The notes under the pieces: model-generated
Databases searched by the model: none
What the model was told of the DNA's origin: nothing
Seen by the model: the letters and a program-made list of their open reading frames with translations, nothing else
Source: Cyanidioschyzon merolae
Lineage: Eukaryota
DNA length: 64,000 nucleotides
Assembly (NCBI GenBank): GCA_000091205.1
Contig: AP006493.2
Reading direction: 5' to 3' (one strand)
Part shown: positions 15,771 to 46,150 of the stretch, piece by piece
How positions within the stretch are numbered: position 1 is the stretch's first letter
How the letters are laid out: each line of letters opens with the position of its first letter
Position numbers and translations under genes: made by a program

Positions 15771-15904
15771 ACTTAAAGTTCTACAGTGCGGGAAAATCGT
15801 TCTGCTGCCACTGCTGCCGATCGACTAGATCCATGTCTGTATGGAAGGAAACGGATGCACTCGAGTAACTGGGGTGTACAAACTGAAGTTTAAGCGTCAA
15901 GTCA

Positions 15905-18900
15905 ATGTCACGAAAGCCATCCCATGGCAGCTTTTGCTGCGGCTGATCGCTTTTCCTCTCTCTTAGCTCCGGGCTGGAATACGCCGGTCTCTACTTTCTT
16001 TCCAGCACTGTTGTAGGCTGTCGAGGGATGCTAATCGCGGCGTTGGGGTCGCAGTTTCACAGGTTCCGGCAGTTGCCTGCGTATTCGATGTACAGGCGGA
16101 GGTTGCGATTGACGGATCGCTTGCCGTTTTCTTCGTTTCCTAGAATTCAGTACTGGTGCGCGCCTCGTAGCGGTTAACCTGGTTGTGTTCAGATATTCCC
16201 GTATGTGTTCACGAGCTCGCATTCCCTGGGAGCCGACCTGCAGCATGCGAGCGCTTGCTGCATCCCTCCGTAGCTGTCGTTGACGGGTACAGAAGGCTCT
16301 ACGCGATGCCTTGCTCCGTTTTCGCGCCCAGTGCTGTGCCCCGTGATCATGCACTTGCTCTTCTGGACGACTTCTTGTGCGAGTGCGCTGCCCGCTGCAC
16401 TCGCAAGCGCACGCTATTCCATTCGGTACCTCAACAACCGATTCCTTGTGCGCTCTTGCTTTCCTGCGTTCCCTTCCCACAAACTGTGCAGATGAGCGTG
16501 ACGGGCCATCAGGTCCGATTGTGCCACATGCTTGTGATAATGCCGCCAAGGCTACTGGGACTCTCTCCTGTCTCACTCGTTTGCGCGTCGGACGAGTGCC
16601 TCACTCGCTCACCGTCCGCTTAGGCGAACATATGAGGTACTCGAGTCCAAGCTACGACTTTGAGCGGGAATCGGCGTGTTCGAGACTCGCGGCTCCAGTG
16701 CGTCGTCGGTGACCACAGGCAAGTCGGGCATCCCTTCGGATCTCGCAATCATCGTGAAGGTTCAGGGACCCGGTCTCTTTGGGTCCAAGTTGAGGCCGAT
16801 CGCATTGGGGAGCAAGTTCGCGCCGCCGCGCATCCCAGTTGTTCGTTGTTCATCCACACATTTCCCCCTCTAACCAGGGTGCATCTGCACCCTGACGATT
16901 CTTCAGTCGTATAGAGCGTTCGCGCTTGACGGCGATGGACACACTCGCGCTATCGGAAGCGAACGACGACTCTACTTCTCCTGTTGGAAGCGCGAAGCTC
17001 CGGTTCCTCCGGTCTCCCTTCGCCTCCGCGCCCTCCTGCGCGCTCCGTCGCTTCTCGCTCGTCAAGCGGTTCATGAGTTTCTTCGAATCTTCGGGTGCGG
17101 GCGCATAGTTCGCTGTCTGGGCTTGCACCTAGCGATCAGCCTCTCTTCCTCTTCCTCGACACACTTGTTCTCCATCGGACGCATCTGCGTAACCCTCGCG
17201 CGGCGTCACGATCCACGACAAAGCGAAAAAGTGTGCTTGCTGGCAGTGCCACGAGCCACGGAGACGTGCGTTCGTAAAAGCCGCGTACTCCTCCCCTGAC
17301 GGAGGCTCTGGACCGGCACGCTGGGTGCAGACGCGCCATCGCATTCGTGGGTGCGTTAGTCGCATGCGACAGGTCCATCTTCGAGACAACGTCCTCGTCG
17401 CGAAGGGCCAGATGACGGACATTCATCATGGTCTCCCAATCCTTCGAGCCGACTGGCTGCAATGAAGCGTCGGTCATGAAGAGCTCCTTCATACCGCCCA
17501 TGCCGGTCGCCGAGTCGTCGCACTTTCGCCTCCACCCCATAGAATCTTTCACGTGCCGGTGGAGGTGTATGCTCACCCTTCTCAGCGTCACTGTGCGTAT
17601 CATTCCCCGTACCCATTCGTATTATCTGGGGCGCTTTGAGTCACCAAGCGAGAGAGGCCCTCGACGCTCCCAATGCTGTCCAGCTTGGGAGCCGACGTCC
17701 GTGCGTCGCCGATGAAGGCTAGTTGCGGGTCAAGTCTGCCTGGTGCGCACTCGGGGACAACTAGGACGAAAAGCTTATCGGTGTCAGCTGCGCTTCTACA
17801 AAGTGCTGGACGTTTCCAAAGACCTCGGCACACTCGAAGCACGCGGACTTGAGTTTGAGGCAAGCGTGTCGCCGGAGCTTGCTGCAAAGAACCACCAGGT
17901 ACATGTCGCGTGCCACGTGTTCCGGTGGGAGCACGCACGTTCCAAGCTGGCACTGAACGACCGCCGTTTCCGGCAGTAACGATGAGCGCCGCTCCTCGTC
18001 CGTGAACACACCCAAGCGAAGCGTTCCGTTCAGGAAACCGCCCCGTCCGAGACTGGCGAGCTCGTCTGGAAGCGGTACGCATCTCTTTTCGTTACGCTCT
18101 TGGACGATTTTCGTCCAACTACACAGTCGTTTCTCTGAGACCTCTCGTGTGCGGCGGTTGTGTGCCTCCGTCGATAAGCATGCCGTATAACTAAAGTATT
18201 TATACCTTGTTTTTCTCTTCGTACTACTTCGGAATTCCACGAACCGCAATCGTCAGCGAGTTTCCCTATACAAACTCCAACAGGTCCATTGGTCTGAACG
18301 GCAGTTCCTCGAGCACTGGGCATCAGTTCGTGTCGAGAGCGAGCCGCGTTATCCCGAAGCGTGCATCGGCCTCTCTGAGGCTGCGTTTGACGGCCCCGCA
18401 ACCGTTCTCCATCGGTTTGAAACACAGAGCATAAGCTGGTGTGTGCGTGTGCAGGATGACCAATGCCCGCTCTTTGCTGTTTGCCGAATAGAAGGGAATT
18501 CGTGGAACGCGTTGCTGTCTATGATGAAACACGCAGTGGCTGGAGTGGAACTCCAGATTCGCGACGCAGCGTAGAAACGTCGATCCGTCGGCGCTCCTGC
18601 CGTGCCGCTAAGCGATGACGCACTTGCCACCGGAATCCATCGCTGCGATGACTGCAGTCCGCGTCCAGCACCCTTTCCCATGCGAACAGAAGAGACGCGA
18701 GCCTCTGGGAGCGGATCCCACGGGCGGGAATGTGGTTGTGGTGGTGGTGCTGCTGCTCCTGCTGCTGCTGCTGATTTCGGGTCCCTTCTCTTCGATGGCC
18801 ACGGAGCGGGCTGGAATTGTCTTTCGGGCGGGATCGATTGCTTAACGTGACGAGCTCATTGAGCTTTCGGCGGGAGCGTGTGGAGAAGTCACCAAGGGAT

Positions 18901-19293
18901 GGCGCCGCGCTCCTTTTCTCGTCGGGTCGGCAGCGCGAATCGTTGCGCCTACGAGTTGCGTCGCGACTGAAATGACGAAAACTCGAAGAATACGTGATTC
19001 GAGCGTGATAGACGTAAGGAAAGGAGGAGCGTGGCGGTCACTCACATGAACAGGACGGTGATATCGAATATTTTTTTGAAATCTTTTTTTAGGACGCCGC
19101 ATTTCGTCTTGATTCCAGAGCCGTAACGAGCTGCAGTTGTGAAGCATTGAACGAGCCATTGCGAAAAGACAACCTAGAGTCGGAGAACGGACCGTGAATC
19201 CGAAATTCCTTATTATTGGACTTTGAACGTCTAGGATGTGTATCTATAAATTTTCAGGAGGAAATTGAAAGATAGAAACATGTCGAACCGCTT
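15905..19293. repeat. inverted-repeat arm A (~3.39 kb), ~99% identical to the reverse complement of 26708..30100; non-coding dispersed element
   Basis: Every ORF in this arm has a mirror-image twin on the opposite strand of the other arm, with 0-2 aa differences (for example 17136..17603(-) versus 28403..28870(+)). Boundaries were found by direct comparison of the reverse-complement sequence. It contains a (GTG/GCT)n microsatellite at ~18722-18790. The longest ORF is 181 aa, basic, with no domain. Confidence 0.9.
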
Positions 19294-19945
19294 AGTGCTT
19301 TATTTCCAGATGACGCGAACGTTGGAATGCGCAGTGCAGCGCACGGAGAGCCGCGCCTGCGCACCGATTGCCTGCTGCGCTCGGTGACGTGTCTAGCACG
19401 CATCGCGCTCTTTGCACGCATCTCGGCGCATGCGTGTAACATAACATTTGCACGCTTGTTGTTGCGTAAAACTTCCGTTTTAAAGTTGTTTTTCTATTTT
19501 TGGAGTTCCTTGCTTGGGCGATGCGTTGCTCTGAACATGAAAAACTGGCAAGAATTTCAGGTATTTTGGTCGACCCACGTTTATCGCGAACGTGGGTCAC
19601 GAAACGCTCGCGACGAGTGCGTGGTACGGCCCGAGGTAACGTGCGACACAGAACGTACAGCAGTGGTGTGTTGCACTGGTTTGGTTGAGTTGTTTCGGCA
19701 ATTTCTGTCCTTAATCGTTTGCGCCAGGCATCTCGGGCCTCTTGGCGTCTATCTTTAGAAATATGCTTTCACACGGGAAACTGAACTTCGCTTGAACAAA
19801 AACAGCGCTTTCAATGCTGAAAAAGCTGCTCGAGGCGCTTTGCTTTGTTTCCTCGGTACCTCGGTAAGATTTTCTTATCCTTAGACTAGTTCACCCAAAC
19901 TTCATGGTGGTTGCTGGCTGGGGGCCGATCATCTTTCAAGGCGGA

Positions 19946-21229
19946 CTACGAGTCTTTCCTTGTCACTGGATTCATACCTGTTACGGAATTGCCGCCGCCG
20001 CTGCCCATTGGGCCGCCAGAGTTTTGCCCACCGAGGCCACCTCCAGTACCAGATCCGCTAGACATATCCGGTGCGTTCGGACGGGTCGGTGGTGCTTGCG
20101 TTTGCGGTGGTGGTGGTGGTGTAGGCTGCTTCGGTGGCGCCAATATGGGAGCCTGTGGTGCTGTAGGCCCATCCCCATTCATCATTTGTTGCCCATTTCT
20201 GGGGCCGTTGCCGCCACCGCTGCCTATTGATCCGCCAGAGTTTTGCCCACCGAGGCCACCTCCAGTACCGGATCCGCTAGACATATCCGGTGCGTTCGGA
20301 CGGGTCGGTGGTGCTTGCGTTTGCGGTGGTGGTGGTGGTGTAGGCTGCTTCGGTGGCGCCAATATGGGAGCCTGTGGTGCTGTAGGCCCATCCCCATTCA
20401 TCATTTGTTGCCCATTTCTGGGGCCGTTGCCGCCACCGCTGCCTATTTGTGCGCCAGAGTTTTGCCCACCGAGGCCACCTCCAGTACCAGATCCGCTAGA
20501 CCCGTCCAGCAGATTTGGCTGAGGCTGTGGTGTGTGCTGATGTGGTGGTGGTGTTGGCGGCTTCGGTTGCGTTGGTGTTGGAGCCTGTGGCGCTGTAGCC
20601 CCGTTCTCATTCATCATTTGTTGCCCATTTCTGGGGCCGTTGCCGCCACCGCTGCCTATTTGTGCGCCAGAGTTTTGCCCACCGAGGCCACCTCCAGTAC
20701 CAGATCCGCTAGACCCGTCCAGCAGATTTGGCTGAGGCTGTGGTGTGTGCTGATGTGGTGGTGGTGTTGGCGGCTTCGGTTGCGTTGGTGTTGGAGCCTG
20801 TGGCGCTGTAGCCCCGTTCTCATTCATCATTTGTTGCCCATTTCTGGGGCCGTTGCCGCCACCGCTGCCTATTTGTGCGCCAGAGTTTTGCCCACCGAGG
20901 CCACCTCCAGTACCAGATCCGCTAGACCCGTCCAGCAGATTTGGCTGAGGCTGTGGTGTGTGCTGATGTGGTGGTGGTGTTGGCGGCTTCGGTTGCGTTG
21001 GTGTTGGAGCCTGTGGCGCTGTAGCCCCGTTCTCATTCATCATTTGTTGCCCATTTCTGGGGCCGTTGCCGCCACCGCTGCCTATTTGTGCGCCAGAGTT
21101 TTGCCCACCGAGGCCACCTCCAGTACCAGATCCGCTAGACCCGTCCAGCAGATTCGGCTGAGGCTGTGGTGTGTGCCGATGTGGTGGTGGTGTCGGCGGC
21201 TCCGTAGTCGGTGTAGGCGGCTTAGTCAT
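19946..21229 (-). CDS. mucin-like glycoprotein, C-terminal repetitive part (Gly/Pro/Gln-rich 71-73-aa repeats), likely a continuation of 21222..22382
   Basis: Begins 'MTKPPTPTTEPPTPPP', which continues the PT repeat. It then carries ~5.5 copies of the unit 'GSSGSGTGGGLGGQNSG.QIGSGGGNGPRNGQQMMN..G.TAPQAP...PPTPPP'. Confidence 0.55.
   Translation of the reverse strand: MTKPPTPTTEPPTPPPHRHTPQPQPNLLDGSSGSGTGGGLGGQNSGAQIGSGGGNGPRNGQQMMNENGATAPQAPTPTQPKPPTPPPHQHTPQPQPNLLDGSSGSGTGGGLGGQNSGAQIGSGGGNGPRNGQQMMNENGATAPQAPTPTQPKPPTPPPHQHTPQPQPNLLDGSSGSGTGGGLGGQNSGAQIGSGGGNGPRNGQQMMNENGATAPQAPTPTQPKPPTPPPHQHTPQPQPNLLDGSSGSGTGGGLGGQNSGAQIGSGGGNGPRNGQQMMNGDGPTAPQAPILAPPKQPTPPPPPQTQAPPTRPNAPDMSSGSGTGGGLGGQNSGGSIGSGGGNGPRNGQQMMNGDGPTAPQAPILAPPKQPTPPPPPQTQAPPTRPNAPDMSSGSGTGGGLGGQNSGGPMGSGGGNSVTGMNPVTRKDS
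20016..21170. repeat. tandem minisatellite, unit 213-219 bp, ~5.5 copies (coding)
   Basis: 'ctccagtacc' recurs at 20041 and 20260 (219-bp spacing) and at 213-bp spacing further downstream. There are two unit subtypes. Confidence 0.85.
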
Positions 21230-21595
21230 TGGCGTTGGCGGCTCCGTAGTCGGTGTTGGCGGCTTCGTAGTCGGCGTTGGCGGCTTCGTAGTCGGTGTCG
21301 GCGGCTTCGTAGTCGGCGTTGTCGTGCCTAGTCGTCGGTGTCGGCGGCTTAGTAGTCGGCGTAGGCGGCTTAGTAGTCGGTGTAGGCGGCTTAGTAGTCG
21401 GCGTAGGCGGCTTAGTAGTCGGCGTAGGCGGCTTAGTAGTCGGCGTAGGCGGCTTAGTAGTCGGTGTAGGCGGCTTCGTAGTCGGTGTAGGCGGCTTAGT
21501 AGTTGGCGTCGGCGGCTTCGTAGTCGGTGTAGGCGGCTTAGTCGTCGGTGTTGGCGGCTTAGTCGTTGGCGTCGGCGGCTTAGTCGTCGGCGTTA
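21190..21595. repeat. tandem repeat, 21-bp unit (ggcggcttNgtagtcggYgtN), ~19 copies, encoding (PTTKPPT)n on the minus strand
   Basis: Direct reading of the sequence. The antisense frames give the spurious 'VGVGGLVVG' and 'RRLSSRRRRLSS' ORFs. Confidence 0.9.
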
Positions 21596-22382
21596 ATGTT
21601 GGTGTCGGCGTTGGTATTATTGTAATCGGTGGCATTGGTGTCGGTATCTGCGTAGTAGTCGGCGTTGGAGGTATCGTTGGCTTGACTATTATGATCGTTG
21701 GTGTTTGCGTTGGTGTTTGAATGGAAAATACCTCCTGATGACATACACGTTTCACTTCTTTGCAGATGATTGTACAAGCTGGCTGAGCGGGGCTCTTCGA
21801 CGCAACAGTTCCCTGAACTTTTCCCAGAGTAGTCTTCTGTGGTGTGCTAGGTATCCACCTATCCGAAACTGGAACCTTCCCTGATACGTCCTTCTGTGGT
21901 CCAAACACCAACGAGCACTTTTCCTCTGCTGTGAAGCTTTCAACGCACACTCGACAGATATTCTTCAGTGCATACATCTCGCACACTGTTTGGTTCTTAT
22001 AGATGCATTTCTGGTAACAGTCATTTGGAGCATGAACTGGCACGTTCCCTTTCCTCACATTTGTGTATCCTTCTGTCCTTGCATTCTTTGAAAGCCCATA
22101 CTTTTCCTTGGGCGAGGCGTTCTCGAAGTTCGAGCTCGCTGGACAAATCCAGACTTTCTTCTCACAGACTTTCACTACTGCCTCTTCAATGCAGACTTGC
22201 TCCAGACGGCAGTCTTCGATCGTGATCAAAGGCTGGCAGTAGTCCAGGTTGCGTTGGAGCGAGTTTCGTGCCGGCGAAACTTCGCTCCAAGTTTCTCGTT
22301 GGATACCATTGGTAAGCACAGCGCTGTTTAGGTACAAAAGAATGAGCAGCCAAAAGATCCCAACTGAAACAAAGCTTCTCAT
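21222..22382 (-). CDS. secreted mucin-like surface glycoprotein, N-terminal part: signal peptide, Cys-rich domain and (PTTKPPT)n repeats
   Basis: N-terminus 'MRSFVSVGIFWLLILLYLNSAVL' is a signal peptide. It is followed by a ~200-aa Cys-rich region, then ~19 copies of the 7-aa 'PTTKPPT' repeat. It overlaps the next ORF (19946..21229) in a different frame, so this is probably one gene with a real or sequencing frameshift. Confidence 0.65.
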   Translation of the reverse strand: MRSFVSVGIFWLLILLYLNSAVLTNGIQRETWSEVSPARNSLQRNLDYCQPLITIEDCRLEQVCIEEAVVKVCEKKVWICPASSNFENASPKEKYGLSKNARTEGYTNVRKGNVPVHAPNDCYQKCIYKNQTVCEMYALKNICRVCVESFTAEEKCSLVFGPQKDVSGKVPVSDRWIPSTPQKTTLGKVQGTVASKSPAQPACTIICKEVKRVCHQEVFSIQTPTQTPTIIIVKPTIPPTPTTTQIPTPMPPITIIPTPTPTLTPTTKPPTPTTKPPTPTTKPPTPTTKPPTPTTKPPTPTTKPPTPTTKPPTPTTKPPTPTTKPPTPTTKPPTPTTKPPTPTTKPPTPTTRHDNADYEAADTDYEAANADYEAANTDYGAANAND

Positions 22383-23799
22383 GGCTAACGAGCTTCTATT
22401 CTCAGAGAATGATGTACCCTTCCAAGTTCAGCAATATGTTTTCGTTATGAACTAAAATCCTGAGGTCAAAAACTCTGTGTTACCGTTGTCCACGGCCCAA
22501 GTCTATTAGGACTGAAAACAAAAAAAAAGATATGTGGTAGTGAGCGCCCCGGTGGTGAAGTAGAGACCTGCATCAGCTCGTTACCGCATAAAGTGCGGTA
22601 ATTCTCGCAACGCACGACATCGCGCGACAACGAATGAGGTATCCGCGACATGCACAGGGGTGCAACGATGAGTCTGCACCGTACGTAATGCCGATCTACG
22701 TCAAATGGATGGCTTTCGTTCCATGAAAATGATCTCATGCGCGTCGTTCATCGCACAGAATGCATCGCACAGAATGCATCGCACAGAATGCATCGCACGC
22801 GAGCGCCGGCGACGCGAATCGCGCGTGCTCCGCCTCGATGACACGTAGCTTATCGTTTTTACCGCACGCACGCTTGACCGCGAAATACCGTTGAGCAGGC
22901 CTCCGAATCGGGTGCGTATTTGACGCAAACTTGGACCGGCGCACAGATATTTGCACTTCTATCAAACCTTGCCCCTTAACTGCATTCCATCTCCAGGTGC
23001 AGAGATTCTGATGCGTTTTCGCGATTTGTAGCAGACGCGTTCGAAGTGCGATCGGTTCAAAAATAGAAAACATTGCAAAGGTACGGTATGGACACAGAAG
23101 TCGGGGATTCTGGAGGGCTCTCATCGCCAGCTGGTGGAAACAAAAGCCCCCGTCTCGTCGACCAACGCGGAATTTACGGATCTTGATCTTTGCAGCGTCG
23201 TTAGCTTGCTCTGAAACGTAGGCCCCAGCCTTTGGACAGCAAGCGAGGTTGCAGGCCGAATGCATCACTTGCGACCTGCTGTACTTTTGCCTGCCGATGT
23301 GCTGGTAGCGCCCCTCGACACTTGTTTAGAACGAAAAGCTGTGAGTGATTTCTCAGACAGTGCGCCCAAATTTTCCCTTCGCTAGGACACCGTCAATCAT
23401 AGTATAGGACTGAACGGAGCTGTTTCTATCAAAGGAATCGATATTCTATCACCAGTTTTTGGTAATAATGCTAGAAATGATAAAAATTTTAACGGAATCG
23501 CGAGCCGTCACGTAATTCACGGTTCTGTGCTCTGACCGAGGCTCGTGTACACCCGCAAAAGCTGTATGTATTTGTATCGTGATAGAATCAATCGACGTGC
23601 GATCACGTGCAAGAGGCTTCTCAGAAAATGGATTGCCGAATAGTGAATAAAGGATTCGCAATGGGGTAGCACCGGTGGCATCGCACAACCGGGATATCAA
23701 GAGAACGCCTTTCACGGAATAGAGAAAAGCTGCTGTTACGTGGTACTTTATATTGATTCACGAAATCTGCGTCACGAGAGGGAAACGTTGTCTAGTTTC

Positions 23800-24065
23800 A
23801 TGGAAGCCAATTCCTCGAGCCGACGCCCTCTGTGTGCTACGGCAACGCCGTTCTGTCTCCGTGCAGCGACCGCACCCGCGCTATAGGCGCCATTGCTGTC
23901 GCTTTCGGCAGGCTCGGCACAACATAGGACGTATGAAACGACCAGAATATCCGAGAAGAAGTAAAGGTAATGTAACTTGGAGGCAGGGCATTTGGCGGAT
24001 ACCTCATCGCGCACTGAATAAAACACAAAAAAGTAAGAAAAGAAAAAAGCGCAGAGTCGGAGAAC
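23800..24065 (+). mobile_element. 5'-truncated copy of the LINE 3' end (3'UTR plus A-rich tail)
   Basis: The reverse complement of 8990-9250 aligns here. Shared blocks are 'gagacagaacggcgttgccgta.cacagagggcgtc.gctcgagg', 'tcggatattctggtcgtttcatacgtcctat' and a T/A-rich tail ('aaaacacaaaaaagtaagaaaagaaaaaag' on + at 24030-24060). This explains the shared 'RIFWSFHTSY' peptide in ORFs 8996..9187 and 23837..24028. Confidence 0.7.
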
Positions 24066-24624
24066 GCTGGCCTATGTCAACATCTTGTTAATTTAAAAAA
24101 ATAGAAGCCGATTCCACGGAAATATGAAAAGAAAAATTACGTATGTAGTTACACGTGCACCGACGGGTAAATTGAAATCGAGAAGAAACCGTGAATCTCC
24201 TAGGACGTATGTGGCGGAACAGATGCATCCCGAGGCGAGTTCGTTGCTGGATGAGTCTTGCGTAGGTGACATGTAATGGACCAGCCCCGAAATGCGACGG
24301 AGGACCTCGGTGCAGCTAGCACTCGCTTGTTAGGTTACGTCCAAAAACTGGTGAACTAGCTGAAACTTGCATTAGCAGTAGTCTAGGCAAAAGGCATGAC
24401 AAATCATAATGCGGAACGTAAGTGTTTCTCAGATTTATCCATTTGAAATATATAGCACTACATAAGGGTTACCAAGAGATGCGCCTTCGAGTCTTCGAAA
24501 GTATCCTCATTTCGCTGCAAGTTTCAAACCGAAGACTGCATCCATTCAGGTCGTTTGCTGCTTTACATGGCAGCAAGGACATGAGTTCATTGCGAAAAGC
24601 GTAAGATAGACATGCAAACATCCA

Positions 24625-25701
24625 CTATATGAGAGTGACGATGGAGCTCACCGCGCTCAAGGGCGCCGACGGCGAGGCTACCGAAATCGATGGGCTTGTG
24701 CTCGGTGAGACGGAGGAGCTTATAGAGGTCGTCGCGCTCACGGACACCGACGGCGAAGCTACCGAAATCGATGAACTTGTGCTCGGTGAGACAGAGGAGC
24801 TTATAGAGGTCGTCGCGCTCACGGACACCGACGGCGACGCTACCGAAATCGATGGGCTTGTGCTCGGTGAGACGGAGGAGCTTACGGAGGCCGTCGCGCT
24901 CACGGACACCGACGGCGAAGCTACCGAAATCGATGGGCTTGTGCTCGGTGAGACAGAAGTGCTTATGGAGATAGTCGCGCTCACAGTCGCCGATGGCGAA
25001 ACGCTTCTTGACACTGTTGCTGACGGAGAGGCAGATGGTAGCAGTGTAGGCTGCACAGTCGGAGTCGGAAGGAAAGTGCCGATGATTACGTTCCTGCATT
25101 GCTTTCCGCTGAACAGACATTCATACTGACAGTTTCCATTTTGCTGTTGATACGACTGCCCCCAGCGCTTTGATACCGGATCGGAACCATCCAATGTCCG
25201 TTGAACCACAGTATCGCAAACTTCCACAAGCTCGTAATTCGTCCTGCATGCTGTGCACACATTTGCCGTGCGATACTCTACACAGGTTTGCTCGCCGAAA
25301 GACAAGCAGTCACCACATCCGCTATATTGATTTTGCCTCCAACGCAGCACCTTGAAATCTTTCGAGTCGAATCCCGCCAAACCCTGATTTTCTTTGGTAG
25401 CTTCACGGCCGAGCGTCTGGCTGCCGTGACCACTGCCAATCTCAGCAGAGGAGCGTAGCGTACATGCCGTGCCTGTGAGAGAACAGCTTCCGTTGACAAT
25501 CACTTTCGTGCATACGTTCTGCAGGGTGCAGTTATGCAGCGAAGAAGACGAGGGGCACACATAAACACTGTTTCCACCGCTCGTATACCAACGCCTTTCC
25601 GCTGGCCTCGCTGCTAGTACAGAGTCCACTCGCACTGCGTTCGTGAACAGAAGGAGCAACAAAACCGCCAAGGAATGTGTACGGAGCGCGTTATGAATCA
25701 T
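24625..25701 (-). CDS. secreted Ser-rich repetitive cell-surface protein (signal peptide, Cys-rich domain, S/P/T/V 28-aa repeats, hydrophobic C-terminus, possible GPI anchor)
   Basis: N-terminus 'MIHNALRTHSLAVLLLLLFTNAVRVDSVLA', then a ~200-aa Cys-rich region, then 4-5 copies of 'SVSPSTSPSISVASPSVSVSATTSISSS'. It ends '...SAVSSIVTLI'. Confidence 0.65.
   Translation of the reverse strand: MIHNALRTHSLAVLLLLLFTNAVRVDSVLAARPAERRWYTSGGNSVYVCPSSSSLHNCTLQNVCTKVIVNGSCSLTGTACTLRSSAEIGSGHGSQTLGREATKENQGLAGFDSKDFKVLRWRQNQYSGCGDCLSFGEQTCVEYRTANVCTACRTNYELVEVCDTVVQRTLDGSDPVSKRWGQSYQQQNGNCQYECLFSGKQCRNVIIGTFLPTPTVQPTLLPSASPSATVSRSVSPSATVSATISISTSVSPSTSPSISVASPSVSVSATASVSSSVSPSTSPSISVASPSVSVSATTSISSSVSPSTSSSISVASPSVSVSATTSISSSVSPSTSPSISVASPSAPLSAVSSIVTLI
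24650..25010. repeat. tandem repeat, 84-bp unit, ~4.3 copies (coding)
   Basis: The antisense + strand ORF shows the matching 28-aa periodicity 'LTDTDGEATEIDGLVLGETEELIEVVA'. Confidence 0.85.
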
Positions 25702-26707
25702 CCTGTATAGCCCCCTTGAGGTTGTTGAAGAACAACAATATTATTTTGAATATTTCCGGACGAAATTCTTTTTTGAGTGCTATGCACGGGGATGATGCAC
25801 GGATTCGCGCATCTGCGGACAGCGATTTTCCCGCCAACTTCAATTTCGCGAACGATTGATTACGTTCGCGCCAAATCGAACCGCTGCGCACCATACGATT
25901 GCGACGCTCGTATCCTTAAACATGCTGGAACGCTAGTCGCGCAAGCTCAGCTTTCCCGGGCAGTTATGCGAATTAAAACAGTTCCGACACGCTTTGGATA
26001 GAGTACCATTAGTCTTGTCACGTTGCAATAACGACTTGAGGCGTAAAACATGGATCATTGTAGCGGGGTGCTACCCTCGAGCGTCGGCGCCAGAGTAAGC
26101 CTCTGATCCTGAATAGGGTGTACAAGAGAAGATGCGAGCTCGCAAGTGCGAAGTAGCCAGTTCTATTGCACGTCGCAGATGCGTCCAGCGTGTGCGAATT
26201 GTCGATCGGGCAAGAGGGCAGGCGTCATAGCGACCGCATACGGATATTCGAAATCTATAGGGCATCGGTTCCGACCTGCTTTGGTATATAGATATTTTGA
26301 ACTTCTGCATGTACGTTATTTGGCGTATACACTGAAGACTTCTGTCGTGGAAAATTTTAAACCTCGTACGCTTAGGCTTGCGTCTCTCAAATCGGTGTGG
26401 CGAGGTGAAGGCCTCAAATAAATGTAGGTTTACGCATTCTTTTGCTCAACAAGGACCTGGCATCCAAATCATTAATTTCATATATTGAGAAATTTCTCAG
26501 AGAATGTATGTGAACGCCTCGCCCTATTGCCTTAAAAGACAGCTATTTGGCGACATGTCGTATGCGTGTTAACGAGGCGCTGAATATTGACAGCGCAAGA
26601 TCGCCTGCCAGAGCACCACAGGACTCTAGATATCCGAATCTAAAGTGCAATTTCTACTCAGTATAAAGAGCATTGGTGCAGTCTCTAAAGAAACTAGTTA
26701 TGATGGA

Positions 26708-29700
26708 GCACTAAGCTGTTCGACATGTTTCTATCTCTCCATTTCCTCCTGAAAATTTATAGATACACATCCTAGACGTTCAAAGTCCAATAATAAGGAA
26801 TTTCGGATTCACGGTCCGTTCTCCGACTCTAGGTTGTCGTTTCGCAATGGCTCGTTCAATGCTTCACAACTGCAGTTCGTTACGTCTCTGGAATCAAGAC
26901 GAAATGCGGCGTCCTAAAAAAAGATTTCAAAAAAATATTCGATATCACCGTCCTGTTCGTGTGAGCGACCCCCACGCTCCTCCTTTCCTTACGTCTATCA
27001 CGCTCGAATCACGTATTCTTCGAGTTTTCGTCATTTCAGTCGCGACGCAACTCGTAGGCGCAACGATTCGCGCTGCTGACCCGACGAGAAAAGGAGCGCG
27101 GCGCCATCCCTTGGTGACTTCTCCACACGCTCCCGCCGAAAGCTCAATGAGCTCGTCACGTTAAGCAATCGATCCCGCCCGAAAGACAATTCCAGCCCGC
27201 TCCGTGGCCATCGAAGAGAAGGGACCCGAAATCAGCAGCAGCAGCAGGAGCAGCAGCACCACCACCACAACCACATTCCCGCCCGTGGGATCCGCTCCCA
27301 GAGGCTCGCGTCTCTTCTGTTCGCATGGGAAAGGGTGCTGGACGCGGACTGCAGTCATCGCAGCGATGGATTCCGGTGGCAAGTGCGTCATCGCTTAGCG
27401 GCACGGCAGGAGCGCCGACGGATCGACGTTTCTACGCTGCGTCGCGAATCTGGAGTTCCACTCCAGCCACTGCGTGTTTCATCATAGACAGCAACGCGTT
27501 CCACGAATTCCCTTCTATTCGGCAAACAGCAAAGAGCGGGCATTGGTCATCCTGCACACGCACACACCAGCTTATGCTCTGTGTTTCAAACCGATGGAGA
27601 ACGGTTGCGGGGCCGTCAAACGCAGCCTCAGAGAGGCCGATGCACGCTTCGGGATAACGCGGCTCGCTCTCGACACGAACTGATGCCCGGTGCTCTAGGA
27701 ACTGCCGTTCAGACCAATGGACCTGTTGGAGTTTGTATAGGGAAACTCGCTGACGATTGCGGTTCGTGGAATTCCGAAGTCGTACGAAGAGAAAAACAAG
27801 GTATAAATACTTTAGTTATACGGCATGCTTATCGACGGAGGCACACAACCGCCGCACACGAGAGGTCTCAGAGAAACGACTGTGTAGTTAGACGAAAATC
27901 GTCCAAGAGCGTAACGAAAAGAGATGCGTACCGCTTCCAGACGAGCTCGCCAGTCTCGGACGGGGCGGTTTCCTGAACGGAACGCTTCGCTTGGGTGTGT
28001 TCACGGACGAGGAGCGGCGCTCATCGTTACTGCCGGAAACGGCGGTCGTTCAGTGCCAGCTTGGAACGTGCGTGCTCCCACCGGAACACGTGGCACGCGA
28101 CATGTACCTGGTGGTTCTTTGCAGCAAGCTCCGGCGACACGCTTGCCTCAAACTCAAGTCCGCGTGCTTCGAGTGTGCCGAGGTCTTTGGAAACGTCCAG
28201 CACTTTGTAGAAGCGCAGCTGACACCGATAAGCTTTTCGTCCTAGTTGTCCCCGAGTGCGCACCAGGCAGACTTGACCCGCAACTAGCCTTCATCGGCGA
28301 CGCACGGACGTCGGCTCCCAAGCTGGACAGCATTGGGAGCGTCGAGGGCCTCTCTCGCTTGGTGACTCAAAGCGCCCCAGATAATACGAATGGGTACGGG
28401 GAATGATACGCACAGTGACGCTGAGAAGGGTGAGCATACACCTCCACCGGCACGTGAAAGATTCTATGGGGTGGAGGCGAAAGTGCGACGACTCGGCGAC
28501 CGGCATGGGCGGTATGAAGGAGCTCTTCATGACCGACGCTTCGTTGCAGCCAGTCGGCTCGAAGGATTGCGAGACCATGATGAATGTCCGTCATCTGGCC
28601 CTTCGCGACGAGGACGTTGTCTCGAAGATGGACCTGTCGCACGCGACTAACGCACCCACGAATGCGATGGCGCGTCTGCACCCAGCGTGCCGGTCCAGAG
28701 CCTCCGTCAGGGGAGGAGTACGCGGCTTTTACGAACGCACGTCTCCGTGGCTCGTGCCACTGCCAGCAAGCACACTTTTTCGCTTTGTCGTGGATCGTGA
28801 CGCCGCGCGAGGGTTACGCAGATGCGTCCGATGGAGAACAAGTGTGTCGAGGAAGAGGAAGAGAGGCTGATCGCTAGGTGCAAGCCCAGACAGCGAACTA
28901 TGCGCCCGCACCCGAAGATTCGAGGAAACTCATGAACCGCTTGACGAGCGAGAAGCGACGGAGCGCGCAGGAGGGCGCGGAGGCGAAGGGAGACCGGAGG
29001 AACCGGAGCTTCGCGCTTCCAACAGGAGAAGTAGAGTCGTCGTTCGCTTCCGATAGCGCGAGCGTGTCCATCGCCGTCAAGCGCGAACGCTCTATACGAT
29101 TGAAGAATCGTCAGGGCGCCGATGCACCCTGGTTAGAGGGGAAAATGTGCGGATGAACAACGAACAACTGGGATGCGCGGCGGCGCGAACTTGCTCCCCA
29201 ATGCGATCGGCCTCAACTTGGACCCAAAGAGATCGGGTTCCTGAACCTTCACGATGATTGCGAGATCCGAAGGGATGCCCGACTTGCCTGTGGTCACCGA
29301 CGACGCACTGGAGCCGCGAGTCTCGAACACGCCGATTCCCGCTCAAAGTCGTAGCTTGGACTCGAGTACCTCATATGTTCGCCTAAGCGGACGGTGAGCG
29401 AGTGAGGCACTCGTCCGACGCGCAAACGAGTGAGACAGGAGAGAGTCCCAGTAGCCTTGGCGGCATTATCACAAGCAGGTGGCACAATCGGACCTGATGG
29501 CCCGTCACGCTCATCTGCACAGTTTGTGGGAAGGGAACGCAGGAAAGCAAGAGCGCACAAGGAATCGGTTGTTGAGGTACCGAATGGAATAGCGTGCGCT
29601 TGCGAGTGCAGCGGGCAGCGCACGCGCACAAGAAGTCGTCCAGAAGAGCAAGTGCATGATCACGGGGCACAGCACTGGGCGCGAAAACGGAGCAAGGCAT

Positions 29701-30100
29701 CGCGTAGAGCCTTCTGTACCCGTCAACGACAGCTACGGAGGGATGCAGCAAGCGCTCGCATGCTGCAGGTCGGCTCCCAGGGAATGCGAGCTCGTGAACA
29801 CATACGGGAATATCTGAACACAATCAGGTTAACCGCTTTGAAGCGCGCACCAGCACTGAATTCTAGGAAACGAAGAAAACGGCAAGCGATCCGTAAATCG
29901 CAACCTCCGCCTGCACATCGAATACGCAGGCAACTGCCGGAACCTGTGAAACTGCGACCCCAACGCCGCGATTAGCATCCCTCGACAGCCTACAACAGTG
30001 CTGGAAAGAAAGTAGCGACCGGCGTGTTCCAGCCCGGAGCTAAGAGAGAGGAAAAGCGATCAGCCGCAGCAAAAGCTCCCATGGGATGGCTTTCATGACT
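26708..30100. repeat. inverted-repeat arm B (~3.39 kb), reverse complement of 15905..19293
   Basis: See arm A. The mirrored ORF set (26847..27164, 27156..27404, 27924..28406, 29430..29975 and others) matches it. Microsatellite at ~27232-27290. Confidence 0.9.
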
Positions 30101-30645: not shown

Positions 30646-31671
30646 TTGAGGTATGCCTTTCGTGTCATCACGAGACATCAATCCTCAATGAAACTCGGCT
30701 ACCTTACTAGATTTGCGGCCCAGCCTTCGATCGGCACGGAGTACAAGGAACTGCCTCTCTACCTTTTTGCGCTGGTGGGCGTTATTGTAGTGCTTTTGGC
30801 TGGTGCGCAACTACTGCGCTTCCTTTACCGCCACCTGCTTCGAAGGCCCTCGCGCCTTGCCGACAAGTTTCGTGGGGATTGGGCCTTCATCACAGGAGCG
30901 TCCTACGGAGTAGGTGCAGGTTTTGCTAGAGAGTGTGCGCGTCGTGGTCTCAATCTTGTTCTGTTGGCACGCTCAGCAGAGAAGCTAGCGGCTGTTGCAG
31001 CGGACTGCGAACAGCACGGCGTTGCTGTTCGCGTGGTGGCTTTCGACCTGGCCCAGGCTTCAGAAGCGGAATGGAACGAACTCTTTGAAGGTATTTGTGA
31101 TTTGGAGATATCTGTCCTTATCAATAACGCTGGTGTCAACCTAGAGTTTCCTACGGAGTTTATCGATATGGACGAGGCAGCCATCGAGCGGATCGTGCGC
31201 GTGAACATTTGCGCTATGAACAAAATCACACGAAGACTACTACCGAAAATGATTGAACGGAAGAAGGGATGCCTCATATTTTTGTCTTCGGCCGGAGGTG
31301 CTGTAGTTCCCTGTCCGTTGCTCTCCGTGTACGGCGGCACAAAGGCGTACATCGATGCATTCGCCGTTGCGTTGTCTGGTGAAGTCCGTCGGCACAAGAT
31401 TGCGGTTCTGTCCCTGACACCATTTTGGATTACCAGCGAGATGAGCAAGATACGACGCGCCAACTGGATGGTGCCCTCCGCGGACGCGTTCGCACGGCTC
31501 GCTTTGGATCGTCTTGGATTGGAGCTGCGCTCGAATCCGCACTGGGCACATGAGCTCATAGCCTTGGGCTTAAAAGCCACCCGCAGCCTGCCCGCACAGG
31601 TTGCATATGTTGAACGTTTGCATCGGCGTATACGAGAGCGAGCCTTGCGCAAACTTAAGCGACAGCAATGA
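30646..31671 (+). CDS. very-long-chain 3-oxoacyl-CoA reductase (KAR / 17beta-HSD12-like short-chain dehydrogenase)
   Basis: N-terminal TM helix. Rossmann fold 'AFITGASYGVGAGFA', 'NNAGV' and catalytic 'YGGTKAYIDAF' (YxxxK). ~340 aa, typical for the KAR family. The start may be the internal Met at 30688 ('MKLGY'). Confidence 0.75.
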   Translation: MRYAFRVITRHQSSMKLGYLTRFAAQPSIGTEYKELPLYLFALVGVIVVLLAGAQLLRFLYRHLLRRPSRLADKFRGDWAFITGASYGVGAGFARECARRGLNLVLLARSAEKLAAVAADCEQHGVAVRVVAFDLAQASEAEWNELFEGICDLEISVLINNAGVNLEFPTEFIDMDEAAIERIVRVNICAMNKITRRLLPKMIERKKGCLIFLSSAGGAVVPCPLLSVYGGTKAYIDAFAVALSGEVRRHKIAVLSLTPFWITSEMSKIRRANWMVPSADAFARLALDRLGLELRSNPHWAHELIALGLKATRSLPAQVAYVERLHRRIRERALRKLKRQQ

Positions 31672-45549: not shown

Positions 45550-46150
45550 AATTTCGTTCTAAAGGAAAATTCGTCTCTCTTTATGGTCATGGATAATGCG
45601 GCATTCGACGGCAGCCTGATTCCTCTCCTGGGGGCATGCGCTCACAGACTCCCGTCGCTTCTGTTTGCATGAAAATGGGCCTTGGACTCGGAATCGAGTA
45701 GTCGCAGCGATCGCATCGAGCGGAGATAGTGTCAGCAATTGCACGAAGAGCGCGTAGACGGGTCTGCATTGCCTCGACTTATTCCCCAGCCTGGAGTTTC
45801 CATCTGGTAGTGATTCATTATGGACGAAATCTCGTTCCACACACACGCTATCGAATGGAACAGCGTGCGCTTGCGTGTGCAGCGGACAGAGCGCTTGCCA
45901 CGGCGATCGACTAGAAAAAGTCCGTGATCGTAGTGTACGCGGCCAGGCGCAGAAACGGAAGAGGCATCCACCGGAGCCTTCTGTACTCGTCAAGAGCGTC
46001 TACAAAGCAATGAAGCAATCCTTCATGCACCTCAAGACGGCCCTCGATTGATGAGTTGTGTTGAATGCATACGGGAACACCTGGCCTATGCCAAATGTCA
46101 TCCCTGGGAAGGACGTTCTGAGGCCGTCCATAAACAAGGTGAAAATGTTA
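45550..46150 (-). repeat. internally deleted, diverged (~70-75% identity) copy of the inverted-repeat arm element
   Basis: Reverse complement of 45855-46080 matches arm A 16200-16440 (for example 'ccgctgcac.cgcaagcgcacgct.ttccattcg', 'ttcccgtatg..ttca'; peptide 'CPLHTQAHAVPF' versus 'CPLHSQAHAIPF'). 45610-45690 matches arm A 18640-18720 ('IAATTRFRVQGPFSCKQKRRE' versus 'IAAMTAVRVQHPFPCEQKRRE'). The two blocks are ~200 bp apart here versus 2.3 kb in the arms. Confidence 0.6.

What the first reader, a model, noticed from the sequence alone, without database searches (positions are those of the whole stretch)
15905..30100. 3.4-kb near-perfect inverted repeat bracketing a 7.4-kb cassette of secreted, repeat-rich surface glycoprotein genes, a candidate invertible or recombinogenic surface-protein locus
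Arms 15905-19293 and 26708-30100 are reverse complements at ~99% identity. Mirrored ORFs differ by only 0-2 aa over 155 aa, which implies very recent duplication or ongoing gene conversion. Everything between them (19294-26707) is accessory-type content. It holds two signal-peptide-bearing mucin-like genes built from coding satellites (213/219-bp, 21-bp, 84-bp units), a LINE 3' fragment and simple repeats. The core genes GFAT (ends 15770) and KAR (starts 30646) sit immediately outside the arms. Long inverted repeats of this kind promote intrachromosomal inversion. Flanking hypervariable cell-surface genes with them is the architecture of phase- or antigenic-variation switches, and would also be a fragile or palindromic site. 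The symmetry centre (~23000) falls in non-coding DNA containing a 14-bp x3 repeat (22738-22800).
Basis: partly seen in the sequence, partly recalled or inferred. Interest (0 to 1): 0.78.

Follow-up and report, generated by a model that had tools for sequence, protein, structure and literature searches.

The report
Inverted repeat-element pair flanking secreted-protein genes
Two near-identical copies of a common red-alga repeat element sit in opposite orientation around an old pair of secreted-protein genes and exchange sequence with each other, but nothing shows that they act as a genetic switch.

Summary
The inverted repeat is real. The arms are 15907-19299 and 26707-30099: 3,393 bp, 40 substitutions, no indels, 7,407-bp spacer. 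The window is Cyanidioschyzon merolae 10D chromosome 11.

The arms are not a dedicated switch. They are two long-form copies of an interspersed, apparently non-coding repeat family. Two short-form copies lie at 45.1-46.4 kb and 63.1-64 kb. This is probably the ~3.2-kb, 253-copy element reported in 2007.

The arms occupy the two intergenic spacers around an ancestral gene pair. Cyanidiococcus has the same GFAT-mucin-mucin-KAR order and orientation with no arms. Cyanidium also keeps two secreted-protein genes beside GFAT.

The cassette genes are paralogous secreted Cys-rich, mucin-like proteins. Published RNA-seq shows CMK170C at ~1,600 TPM in walled diploids and ~3 TPM in haploids. Its upstream region lies inside the cassette, so inversion would not obviously switch it.

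Metagenome contigs from many samples carry the arm pair. Alleles are shuffled between arms within 83 bp of the unique flanks, which indicates ongoing arm-to-arm gene conversion. Only the reference orientation was seen.

Verdict: an ordinary repeat-derived inverted pair evolving in concert. Inversion is plausible but unproven.

The parts
15907..19299 (+). Left arm of the inverted repeat: a long-form copy of an interspersed repeat element. Homology to another family copy begins ~40 nt earlier, at about 15867.
   Evidence: arm limits, 40 substitutions. (nhmmer hits to other copies). (homology with copy 3 extends over 15867-15906). No Pfam or Rfam match, a non-coding codon-usage score, and no internal repeats, TIR or LTR.
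26707..30099 (-). Right arm: the same element in opposite orientation. It lacks the ~40-nt 5' extension seen at the left copy. It lies in the divergent intergenic region, 1,005 nt upstream of the CMK170C ATG and 588 nt upstream of the KAR ATG.
   Evidence: Spanned end to end by wild contig L001, and almost fully by L024, L031/L035, L036 and L043.
19300..26706 (.). 7,407-bp spacer: an ancestral two-gene cassette plus a LINE fragment.
   Evidence: Synteny with Cyanidiococcus locus L033.
21222..22382 (-). CMK168C (BAM80538.1): signal peptide, Cys-rich ~190-aa domain, then TKPPTPT repeats. The annotated ORF ends after a frameshift inside the 21-bp array.
   Evidence: exact match. (SP(Sec/SPI), 10-23 TPM in all phases). 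(paralogue of CMK170C, 14 aligned Cys). (frameshift).
19946..21229 (-). Downstream ORF that continues the CMK168C repeat frame: more TKPPTPT units, then 5.6 copies of a 71-aa G/Q/P-rich unit. It is the probable original C-terminal part of CMK168C.
   Evidence: The Cyanidiococcus orthologue is a single 2,427-aa ORF.
24625..25701 (-). CMK170C (BAM80539.1): signal peptide, Cys-rich domain, then 27-aa Ser-rich repeats (81-bp units at 24652-25000). It is a diploid-phase-specific secreted protein.
   Evidence: TPM 1634/1700/1387 in 2n against 1.9-3.4 in two haploid strains, logFC 9.65 and 9.17.
23813..24102 (+). 3' fragment of a non-LTR retroelement, between the two cassette genes.
   Evidence: 77% identity to 8951-9238, which lies downstream (3' side) of the reverse-transcriptase ORF at 10758-12113. 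In one search, CMK165C, the gene listed between the mitochondrial-carrier gene and GFAT (where that RT ORF lies), is described as 'retroelement, alive'.
22749..22798 (.). 14-bp x3.6 tandem repeat in the non-coding centre of the spacer.
13434..15770 (+). CMK166C, glutamine-fructose-6-phosphate aminotransferase. It is the left unique flank and is convergent with CMK168C.
30688..31671 (+). It is the right unique flank and is divergent from CMK170C.
45107..46361 (-). Third copy of the arm family, short form. Arm positions 5-523 are joined directly to 2592-3346, with 57-62% DNA identity to the arm.
63143..64000 (-). Fourth copy of the arm family, cut by the window end. It has the same short-form internal junction as copy 3. 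Its 3' terminus aligns with the arm's inner terminus.

Best explanation
The locus is an ancestral pair of paralogous genes for secreted, Cys-rich, mucin-like proteins. In the Cyanidioschyzon lineage it became bracketed by two copies of an interspersed, apparently non-coding ~3.4-kb repeat element in opposite orientation.

One copy sits in the convergent GFAT/CMK168C 3' spacer. The other sits in the divergent CMK170C/KAR spacer. The right copy lacks ~40 nt that the left copy shares with another family member, so the right copy cannot be the parent of the left copy. Either the right copy derives from the left one, or both derive from one recent master (inferred).

Since then the two copies have been kept ~99% alike by arm-to-arm gene conversion. 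This conversion is still operating in natural populations (shown, subject to assembly caveats).

Such a pair is a substrate for homologous recombination that would invert the 7.4-kb cassette (inferred). No inverted arrangement was seen. An inversion would carry both genes together with their upstream regions, so it is not expected to switch expression.

CMK170C is controlled by life-cycle phase: silent in wall-less haploids and very high in walled diploids. It is most plausibly a component of the protein-rich diploid cell wall (inferred).
For: Identity of the locus:
- The window proteins are exact matches to C. merolae 10D BAM80533 and BAM80537-41 on the 852,849-bp chromosome.

The arms are dispersed-family copies:
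- nhmmer with the arm finds two more copies in the same window, at 45107-46361 (E 1e-39 and 2e-40) and 63143-63903 (E 5e-48).
- Both extra copies share one internal junction, arm ~520 joined to ~2590.
- Copy 4 ends exactly where the arm's inner end is.
- Copy 3 reaches arm position 5, and its homology continues 40 nt beyond the left arm's outer boundary.
- tblastx matches carry stop codons on both strands.
- There is no Pfam or Rfam match. Codon-usage scores are -0.09 to +0.04 bits per codon, against +0.03 to +0.14 for 13 known genes.
- No gene model lies between CMK166C, 168C, 170C and 172C, even in the 2026 re-annotation.
- Nozaki et al. 2007 describe 253 interspersed elements averaging 3.2 kb, about 5% of the genome.

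The cassette is ancestral and the arms are derived:
- Cyanidiococcus yangmingshanensis (L033) has KAR, a 1,345-nt gap, the CMK170C orthologue (42% identity), a 2,427-aa CMK168C orthologue, a 677-nt gap, then GFAT. Relative orientations are the same as in 10D.
- L033 has no inverted repeat of 40 nt or more and no arm homology.
- Removing the elements from 10D leaves gaps of ~742-782 nt and ~1,593 nt. These are close to the Cyanidiococcus gaps.
- Cyanidium has two signal-peptide genes next to GFAT, and one of them is ~9,400 TPM and diploid-specific.

Gene conversion:
- Allele patterns at the four outermost arm-difference sites, 4-83 nt from the unique flank, are RRRR, RRLL, RLLL and LLLL on KAR-anchored contigs. 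They are RRRR, LLLR and RxRL (x = neither 10D allele) on GFAT-anchored contigs.
- Pairwise differences show no positional (orthology) signal. For example, the GFAT-anchored L005 arm has 25 differences from 10D-left and 21 from 10D-right. The 10D arms themselves differ at 30 of 2,830 sites.
- Contig L032 carries ambiguity codes at arm-difference sites.

Wild occurrence:
- Dozens of contigs from JGI, ENA and Logan samples enter the arms from GFAT or KAR. They break either ~170 nt inside the arm or in the ~600-nt stretch where the arms are identical.

Regulation:
- CMK170C is 1,387-1,700 TPM in the diploid and 1.9-3.4 TPM in haploids MS1 Ha3 and 10D.
- About 35-50% of secretory-protein genes differ between the phases, and the wall is described as largely proteinaceous.
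Against: - Identity of the arm family with the published 'WSV486-like' element was not tested. No WSV486 sequence or genome-wide copy list was available.
- The family's class and mode of spread are unknown: no TIR, LTR, target-site duplication or poly(A) tail was found.
- Two near-identical copies within 11 kb, in a family whose other local copies are only ~60% identical, is unusual for independent insertions. A local duplication that happened to have repeat-element ends cannot be fully excluded.
- The mosaics inside the arms could partly reflect chimeric short-read assembly. Only the outermost sites are safely phased.
- The polarity 'inserted in Cyanidioschyzon' rather than 'lost in Cyanidiococcus' rests on parsimony and on spacer lengths.
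- Absence of the inverted orientation rests on very few spanning observations.
Confidence: 0.7

Rival explanations
1. Invertible switch. Recombination between the arms flips the cassette and thereby changes which surface glycoprotein is made, as in phase or antigenic variation.
For: - The arms are long and nearly identical, with evidence of exchange between them.
- The cassette genes encode secreted, repeat-rich proteins.
- C. merolae recombines homologous DNA efficiently: transgenes integrate by homologous recombination (abstract listed).
Against: - The upstream regions of both genes (22383-24624 and 25702-26706) lie inside the spacer and would move with the genes.
- No ORF tested in the arms or the spacer has a Pfam match, recombinase or otherwise.
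- CMK170C differs ~600-fold between the diploid and two independent haploids, so it follows ploidy phase.
- The same gene order and orientation exist without arms in Cyanidiococcus.
- Only one orientation was seen.
- The organism is a free-living hot-spring alga with no obvious selective agent for antigenic variation (general knowledge).
Confidence: 0.03
2. One-off inverted segmental duplication. A replication or repair accident copied 3.4 kb from one side of the cassette to the other. The resemblance to other repeats is incidental because the duplicated segment happened to contain an old element.
For: - The two arms are 98.8% identical, while other family copies in the window are ~60% identical.
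- No target-site duplications were found.
- The right arm stops 40 nt short of the left copy's homology with copy 3.
Against: - The inner arm boundary coincides to the base with the terminus of an independent family copy (copy 4).
- The outer boundary lies within 40 nt of the family's other end.
- An arbitrary duplication would be expected to include flanking unique DNA on at least one side.
- Subtracting the elements restores spacer lengths like those in Cyanidiococcus on both sides. Both sites therefore gained just the element.
Confidence: 0.1
3. Co-opted chromatin elements. The two repeat copies serve as nucleation or boundary sites for Polycomb (H3K27me3) silencing. This keeps the diploid-specific cassette off in haploids while the neighbouring housekeeping genes stay on. 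It is not exclusive of the best explanation.
For: - In 10D about half of repeats and transposons carry H3K27me3.
- In Cyanidiococcus, 116 of the 126 genes marked in haploids are diploid-dominant.
- CMK170C is silent in haploids, while GFAT and KAR on either side run at 100-270 TPM.
- The right arm sits exactly between the divergent CMK170C and KAR start codons.
Against: - Cyanidiococcus has the same gene pair without the arms, and in Cyanidium a secreted-protein gene beside GFAT is strongly diploid-specific. Whether the Cyanidium locus carries arm-like repeats was not examined.
- CMK168C, inside the same bracket, is not phase-specific.
- No H3K27me3 data for this locus could be retrieved.
Confidence: 0.1
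4. Assembly artefact. The second arm is a mis-join or a collapsed or duplicated repeat in the reference.
For: - The stretch 18743-21520, including the left inner junction, is not covered by any independent contig retrieved here.
- The 2007 finishing paper reports earlier mis-assemblies elsewhere in the genome.
Against: - Independent assemblies enter the arm from both unique flanks. GFAT-side contig L005 reaches 18742, and KAR-side contig L001 crosses the whole arm into the cassette.
- The 40 arm differences and the shared polymorphism in wild samples require two physical copies.
- The genome was finished from BAC clones, telomere to telomere.
Confidence: 0.02

Closest known systems
The interspersed ~3.2-kb repetitive element of C. 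merolae: 253 copies, ~5% of the genome, with a truncated ORF weakly similar to white spot syndrome virus WSV486 (Nozaki et al. 2007, PMC1955436)
   Same: - Same organism.
- Similar unit length (3.39 kb against a 3.2-kb average).
- Interspersed and multi-copy: four copies in this 64-kb window.
- No intact gene.
   Different: - The WSV486-like ORF was not verified here.
- Two of the local copies are a 1.2-1.3-kb short form.
- The two arms are ~99% identical to each other, whereas the other local copies are ~60% identical to the arm.
Large inverted repeats that evolve in concert and mediate inversion by non-allelic homologous recombination. Examples are the human Xq28 FLNA-EMD region flanked by ~11-kb inverted repeats, primate sex-chromosome palindromes, and plastid inverted repeats with flip-flop isomers (own knowledge, not checked here)
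   Same: - Kilobase-scale arms at ~99% identity around a unique spacer that contains genes.
- Arm-to-arm gene conversion erases the positional (orthology) signal between strains.
   Different: - Spacer inversion, the hallmark of those systems, was not observed here.
- The arms are repeat-element copies without genes, rather than duplicated genes.
Bacterial invertible phase-variation switches such as hin/hix, fimS and shufflons (own knowledge)
   Same: An inverted repeat brackets DNA associated with surface proteins.
   Different: - Those use short repeats of tens of bp and a dedicated site-specific recombinase, and they move a promoter or coding segment relative to a fixed partner.
- Here the arms are 3.4 kb, no ORF tested in or next to the repeat has a Pfam match (recombinase or otherwise), and whole genes would move together with their upstream regions.
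Phase-specific secreted and cell-wall proteins of Cyanidiophyceae (PMC13353863)
   Same: CMK170C has a signal peptide and is ~600-fold diploid-enriched, like the FAS1, lysyl-oxidase and trefoil-like secretory genes discussed in that paper.
   Different: - CMK170C and CMK168C have no recognised domain: no Pfam match.
- The family has only 5 representatives among 1.84 billion proteins.
- Neither gene is discussed in the paper's text.

Membership tests
C. merolae interspersed ~3.2-kb repeat (Nozaki 2007) | Unit length around 3.2 kb | tested here: met
   The arms are 3,393 bp, or ~3,433 bp for the left copy with its 5' extension. The published average is 3.2 kb.
C. merolae interspersed ~3.2-kb repeat (Nozaki 2007) | Many dispersed copies in the genome | tested here: met
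   Within this window only: four copies, namely two long and two short forms. The genome-wide count could not be made with these tools.
C. merolae interspersed ~3.2-kb repeat (Nozaki 2007) | Truncated ORF weakly similar to WSSV protein WSV486 | not testable with these tools
   No WSV486 sequence was available. The two protein searches with arm ORFs returned nothing, not even the known self clusters, so they are uninformative.
C. merolae interspersed ~3.2-kb repeat (Nozaki 2007) | Transcribed | not tested
   No read-level RNA data were accessible. The 2026 re-annotation places no gene model in the arms.
Concerted-evolution inverted repeats / palindromes prone to homologous-recombination inversion | Kilobase arms at about 99% identity around a unique spacer | tested here: met
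   3,393-bp arms, 98.8% identity, 7,407-bp spacer.
Concerted-evolution inverted repeats / palindromes prone to homologous-recombination inversion | Arm-to-arm gene conversion (shared polymorphism, no positional signal) | tested here: met
   Both alleles occur on both arms at sites 4-83 nt from the unique flanks. The pairwise difference matrix shows no left/right clustering. Caveat: these are short-read metagenome assemblies.
Concerted-evolution inverted repeats / palindromes prone to homologous-recombination inversion | Spacer found in both orientations in the population | tested here: inconclusive
   Only the reference orientation was seen: in 10D, in contig L001, and in the armless Cyanidiococcus locus. 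The 10D vs MS1 Ha3 comparison reports one inversion, and the magnified views of rearrangements show chromosomes 3 and 19. There are too few spanning observations, and a 7-14-kb inversion could escape a whole-genome dot plot.
Site-specific invertible phase-variation switch | Dedicated recombinase encoded at or near the element | tested here: not met
   No Pfam family was matched at E<=0.01 by any of the nine arm ORFs or four spacer ORFs tested.
Site-specific invertible phase-variation switch | Inversion uncouples a promoter or coding segment from a fixed partner | tested here: not met
   Both genes and their upstream regions lie wholly inside the spacer. Expression follows ploidy phase instead.
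Long-TIR / foldback transposon carrying cargo genes | The whole unit (arms plus cargo) is absent from the orthologous site, with a target-site duplication around the unit | tested here: not met
   The cargo genes are present at the orthologous site in Cyanidiococcus without the arms. The outer flanks show no duplication.
Inverted-repeat centromere (S. pombe / Candida tropicalis type) | Gene-free or silent core, distinct (AT-rich in C. merolae) composition, CENH3 binding | tested here: not met
   The core holds a gene expressed at ~1,600 TPM in diploids. The lowest GC in any 400-nt bin is 0.41, and the region averages ~0.5.

The most novel reading that the evidence does not exclude
The two repeat copies may have been co-opted. 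They could flank a life-cycle-regulated cell-wall gene cassette as Polycomb (H3K27me3) nucleation or boundary elements. Alternatively or additionally, they could generate a segregating 7.4-kb inversion in natural populations that suppresses recombination across two fast-evolving surface-protein genes. Either would give a repeat family covering ~5% of a famously minimal genome a concrete role in haploid/diploid differentiation or in population structure.
Probability: 0.1. Interest if true: 0.55.

Novelty: new member of a known kind. Interest (0 to 1): 0.25.

Why it matters
The structure itself is ordinary. Two copies of a known kind of interspersed repeat in inverted orientation, homogenised by gene conversion, is a common eukaryotic arrangement.

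Its modest value is specific to C. merolae:
- It gives a clear natural example of ectopic gene conversion between dispersed repeats in a genome used as a minimal model. Sex and meiotic recombination were documented in this organism only recently.
- It marks a place where homologous-recombination-based engineering, or short-read mapping such as ChIP or RNA-seq, will be ambiguous.
- It draws attention to an uncharacterised, Cyanidiophyceae-restricted family of Cys-rich, mucin-like secreted proteins. One member is among the most strongly diploid-specific transcripts, which makes it a good candidate structural protein of the diploid cell wall.
- It shows that the 'WSV-like' repeat family has long and short forms with shared ends. 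That is a starting point for working out how the family spreads.

Tried and rejected
- **Coding arms.** The nine arm ORFs tested have no Pfam match. The codon-usage log-odds do not separate any frame. Six-frame inspection shows R-rich, stop-ridden frames. Rejected.
- **RNA genes.** No tRNA and no Rfam family at gathering threshold.
- **Viral origin.** No match in the phage collection, which is the wrong kind of collection for a eukaryote.
- **Protein searches with arm ORFs**. Both returned nothing, not even self clusters known to be in the database.
- **Orientation test from arm variants.** Abandoned, because the arm-specific alleles are not fixed across strains.
- **Left inner junction in wild contigs.** The junction-motif scan of metagenome contigs found only right-junction contigs. 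Exact look-ups of ORFs at the left junction are not on record. The likely cause is that the left cassette end is only ~690 nt long, lying between the arm and the tandem arrays.
- **Whole unit as a long-TIR transposon.** Rejected by the Cyanidiococcus synteny and the lack of a target-site duplication.
- **Centromere.** Rejected on composition and expression.
- **Mating-type region.** That region is CMK076C-CMK078C, elsewhere on the chromosome.
- **Helitron or Mutator ends.** None are recognisable.
- **LINE dependence.** One 14-nt match to the LINE 3' region is not conserved in the other copies.
- **Structure of the Cys-rich domain.** The AlphaFold model has pLDDT 48.6, too poor for a fold search.
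- **Bacterial promoter/terminator scan**. Irrelevant for a eukaryote and ignored.
- **H3K27me3 target lists.** These genes do not appear in the supplements held for Mikulski et al..

Full report
**What the window is.** Eight proteins translated from the window are exact matches to Cyanidioschyzon merolae 10D proteins on an 852,849-bp record, which is chromosome 11. The matches include:
- GFAT, BAM80537, CMK166C;
- two hypothetical proteins, BAM80538 (CMK168C) and BAM80539 (CMK170C);
- 'probable steroid dehydrogenase SPM2', BAM80540, CMK172C;
- BAM80541, CMK173C.

This genome was finished telomere to telomere from BAC clones.

**The observation.** The repeat finder reports a single inverted pair, 15907-19299 and 26707-30099. 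It is 3,393 nt long with 7,407 nt between the arms. A global alignment gives 40 substitutions and no indels, with sharp boundaries at both ends. Differences are clustered near the outer end. Two stretches of ~600-650 nt have none. Apart from this pair, the only long repeat in the window is a 290-nt LINE 3' fragment, 23813-24102 against 8951-9238.

**The repeat is real in nature.** Exact look-ups of the flanking proteins retrieved dozens of metagenome contigs at 97-99.9% identity.
- KAR-side contigs typically stop ~170 nt inside the arm, or in the stretch where the arms are identical (27124-27482).
- GFAT-side contig L005 reaches 18742.
- Contig L001 runs from KAR through the whole right arm into the cassette, to 23034, colinear with 10D at 99.25%.
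- Contigs L024, L025, L031/L035, L032, L036 and L043 cover the right arm and the right half of the cassette.
- Contig L032 carries ambiguity codes at sites where the two arms differ, as expected if two copies were collapsed.

No contig covering 18743-21520 was found, so the left inner junction rests on the reference alone.

**What the arms are.** Nothing in them looks like a gene.
- The nine arm ORFs tested have no Pfam hit, there is no Rfam family and there is no tRNA.
- A codon-usage log-odds score was trained on 13 genes of the window. It gives every known gene +0.03 to +0.14 bits per codon in its true frame and zero or negative values in all other frames. The arm ORFs score -0.09 to +0.04, with no frame standing out.
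- The 2026 re-annotation, which used haploid and diploid RNA-seq, lists CMK166C, CMK168C, CMK170C and CMK172C consecutively, with no new model between them.

The decisive result is that the arm has relatives elsewhere in the same window.
- tblastx and nhmmer find a copy at 45107-46361 (arm positions 5-523 joined directly to 2592-3346, 57-62% DNA identity). They find another at 63143 to the window end (arm 2589-3392, E 5e-48).
- The second copy has the same internal junction as the first. The family therefore has a long form and a ~1.2-1.3-kb short form.
- Copy 4 ends where the arm's inner end is (…TCGAGCAGTTCAGTGCT against …TCGAACCGCTTAGTGCT).
- Copy 3 reaches arm position 5, and its homology with the left copy continues ~40 nt beyond the repeat boundary, over 15867-15906. 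The right arm lacks this extension.

The arm limits are therefore, to within 40 nt, the limits of a dispersed element and not arbitrary duplication breakpoints. Nozaki et al. 2007 describe 253 copies of a novel interspersed element averaging 3.2 kb. It makes up about 5% of the genome, is transcribed, and has a truncated ORF weakly similar to WSSV WSV486. The arms very probably belong to this family. I could not verify the WSV486 similarity. The element has no TIR, LTR, internal repeat, poly(A) tail or target-site duplication that I could see. Its mode of spread is unknown.

**What the cassette is.** CMK168C and CMK170C are paralogues. Each has a signal peptide, a ~190-aa domain with 14 aligned cysteines, and then Thr/Pro- or Ser-rich tandem repeats. 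SignalP calls for both are given in Data Set S8 of PMC13353863.

The family is tiny. A profile search of 1.84 billion representative proteins found five, all from Cyanidiophyceae-like sources. One of these, KAK4531954.1 of Cyanidiococcus yangmingshanensis, led to the syntenic locus in that genome. There the order is KAR, a 1,345-nt gap, the CMK170C orthologue (42% identity), a 2,427-aa CMK168C orthologue, a 677-nt gap, then GFAT. The relative orientations are the same as in 10D. That 21-kb locus has no inverted repeat of 40 nt or more and no similarity to the arm by blastn, tblastx or nhmmer.

Removing the two elements from 10D leaves ~742-782 nt between the GFAT and CMK168C ends and ~1,593 nt between the CMK170C and KAR starts. 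Both are close to the Cyanidiococcus spacers.

Cyanidium caldarium also has two signal-peptide genes directly beside GFAT. Both are in the CMK168C orthogroup, and one is expressed at ~9,400 TPM in diploids against 5-8 TPM in haploids.

The cassette is therefore old and syntenic, not accessory. The arms are later additions in the Cyanidioschyzon lineage. That polarity is inferred from parsimony and from spacer lengths.

**Regulation.** In Data Set S8, CMK170C is 1,634, 1,700 and 1,387 TPM in the walled diploid MS1. It is 1.9-2.7 TPM in haploid MS1 Ha3 and 2.8-3.4 TPM in haploid 10D, with logFC 9.65 and 9.17. CMK168C is 10-23 TPM throughout. GFAT and KAR are 100-270 TPM throughout.

The paper notes that the wall of these algae is largely protein and that 35-50% of secretory-protein genes differ between phases. 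In Cyanidiococcus, most diploid-dominant genes carry H3K27me3 in haploids.

CMK170C is thus a life-cycle-phase gene. Its 1,005-nt upstream region, and the upstream region of CMK168C, lie inside the spacer. An inversion between the arms would move each gene together with its upstream region.

**Dynamics of the arms.** I scored each contig at the 40 sites where the 10D arms differ. At the four outermost sites, 4-83 nt from unique DNA and so safely phased by reads and k-mers:
- KAR-anchored contigs show RRRR, RRLL, RLLL and LLLL;
- GFAT-anchored contigs show RRRR, LLLR and RxRL (x = neither 10D allele), and 10D itself is LLLL.

Both alleles therefore segregate on both arms.

Over 2,830 shared positions, the GFAT-anchored wild arm (L005) differs from 10D-left at 25 sites and from 10D-right at 21. 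KAR-anchored L001 differs at 29 and 31. The two 10D arms differ from each other at 30. There is no positional signal. This is what frequent arm-to-arm gene conversion produces.

Exchange at the very outer ends cannot be produced by single crossovers, so non-crossover conversion or double exchange is required. Deeper in the arms, chimeric assembly may contribute to the mosaics.

**Orientation.** Every observation that links unique DNA across an arm shows the reference arrangement: 10D, and L001 (KAR-arm-CMK170C). The armless Cyanidiococcus locus has the same gene order and orientation. The published comparison of the 10D and MS1 Ha3 telomere-to-telomere assemblies reports one inversion and one reciprocal translocation. 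The figure legend's magnified views of rearrangements are of chromosomes 3 and 19. That comparison used whole-genome dot plots and could miss 7-14 kb. Inversion polymorphism is therefore neither shown nor excluded.

**Conclusion.** So does the inference of ongoing gene conversion. The functional reading does not stand.
- The structure is best explained as two copies of a known kind of interspersed repeat. One most likely derives from the other or from a shared recent master, because the right copy is 5'-shorter.
- They lie in inverted orientation around an ancestral pair of secreted-protein genes and evolve in concert.
- It works like the inverted low-copy repeats that mediate homologous-recombination inversions in other eukaryotes. 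It does not work like a site-specific switch.
- Alternatives considered were a long-TIR transposon with cargo, a centromere, the mating-type region and an assembly artefact. Each fails at least one defining test.

The least ordinary possibility left open is that the repeats were co-opted as Polycomb-related boundary or nucleation elements for the diploid-specific cassette, or that they maintain a segregating inversion. I give this about 10%.

Noticed in passing
window 21195-21593 and 19946-21229: The CMK168C reading frame is broken by a single frameshift inside the 21-bp TKPPTPT array, near 21330-21340. The next ORF continues the same repeat frame and adds 5.6 copies of a 71-aa G/Q/P-rich unit. 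The Cyanidiococcus orthologue is one 2,427-aa ORF. This is either a real truncation in the haploid laboratory strain or a reference error in a repeat.
   Followed up: partly
window 45107-46361 and 63143-64000: Two short-form copies of the arm family share the same internal junction (arm ~520 joined to ~2590). The 2.07-kb central segment of the arms (window ~16429-18496) is therefore either an insertion into, or was deleted from, a propagating ~1.3-kb form.
   Followed up: partly
window 33068-34783: This WD40 gene is CMK173C, which Mikulski et al. 2017 list as the C. merolae homologue of the Polycomb PRC2 subunit ESC/FIE. It lies about 3 kb from the right arm (the right arm ends at 30099).
   Followed up: no
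window 8951-12743: A non-LTR retroelement on the minus strand, with a reverse-transcriptase ORF at 10758-12113. It probably corresponds to CMK165C (BAM80536.1), which the source annotates 'retroelement, alive' and which is expressed at 27-66 TPM; that assignment rests on gene order, not on a sequence match. It lies just upstream of GFAT.
   Followed up: partly
window ~19176-19189 vs 23813-24102: A 14-nt exact match, AGAGTCGGAGAACG, preceded by GAAAAGA, links the 3' region of the arm with the LINE 3' fragment. About 6e-4 such matches are expected by chance for the segments compared. The motif is not conserved in the two short-form copies, so its meaning is unclear.
   Followed up: partly
L001 (ENA ERZ27247228 k141_764552), end at window 23034: The only contig that crosses a whole arm stops 31 nt from the exact symmetry centre of the inverted repeat (23003). 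Nothing repetitive lies there, and other contigs read through the position.
   Followed up: partly
L032 (JGI24721J44947_10005106): This contig carries ambiguity codes at the positions where the two arms differ, which suggests a consensus of two collapsed copies. Only 5.9 kb of the 18-kb contig could be read.
   Followed up: partly
L034 (JGI 3300005573 Ga0078972_1024364) 3742-6411: An 889-aa distant member of the CMK168C/CMK170C family from an unidentified organism in the same sample as C. merolae-like contigs. It has the Cys-rich N-terminal domain followed by repeated Cys-rich 'CPGGVVYTCLLGDICGCV' modules. Neither GFAT nor KAR is on the contig.
   Followed up: partly
arm ORFs 17136-17603 and 17600-18082 (and their mirror copies): the search for homologous proteins returned no hit for these ORFs. 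Their exact sequences are nevertheless cluster members or representatives in the same collection. Null results from that tool for short, Arg-rich ORFs should not be read as absence.
   Followed up: yes
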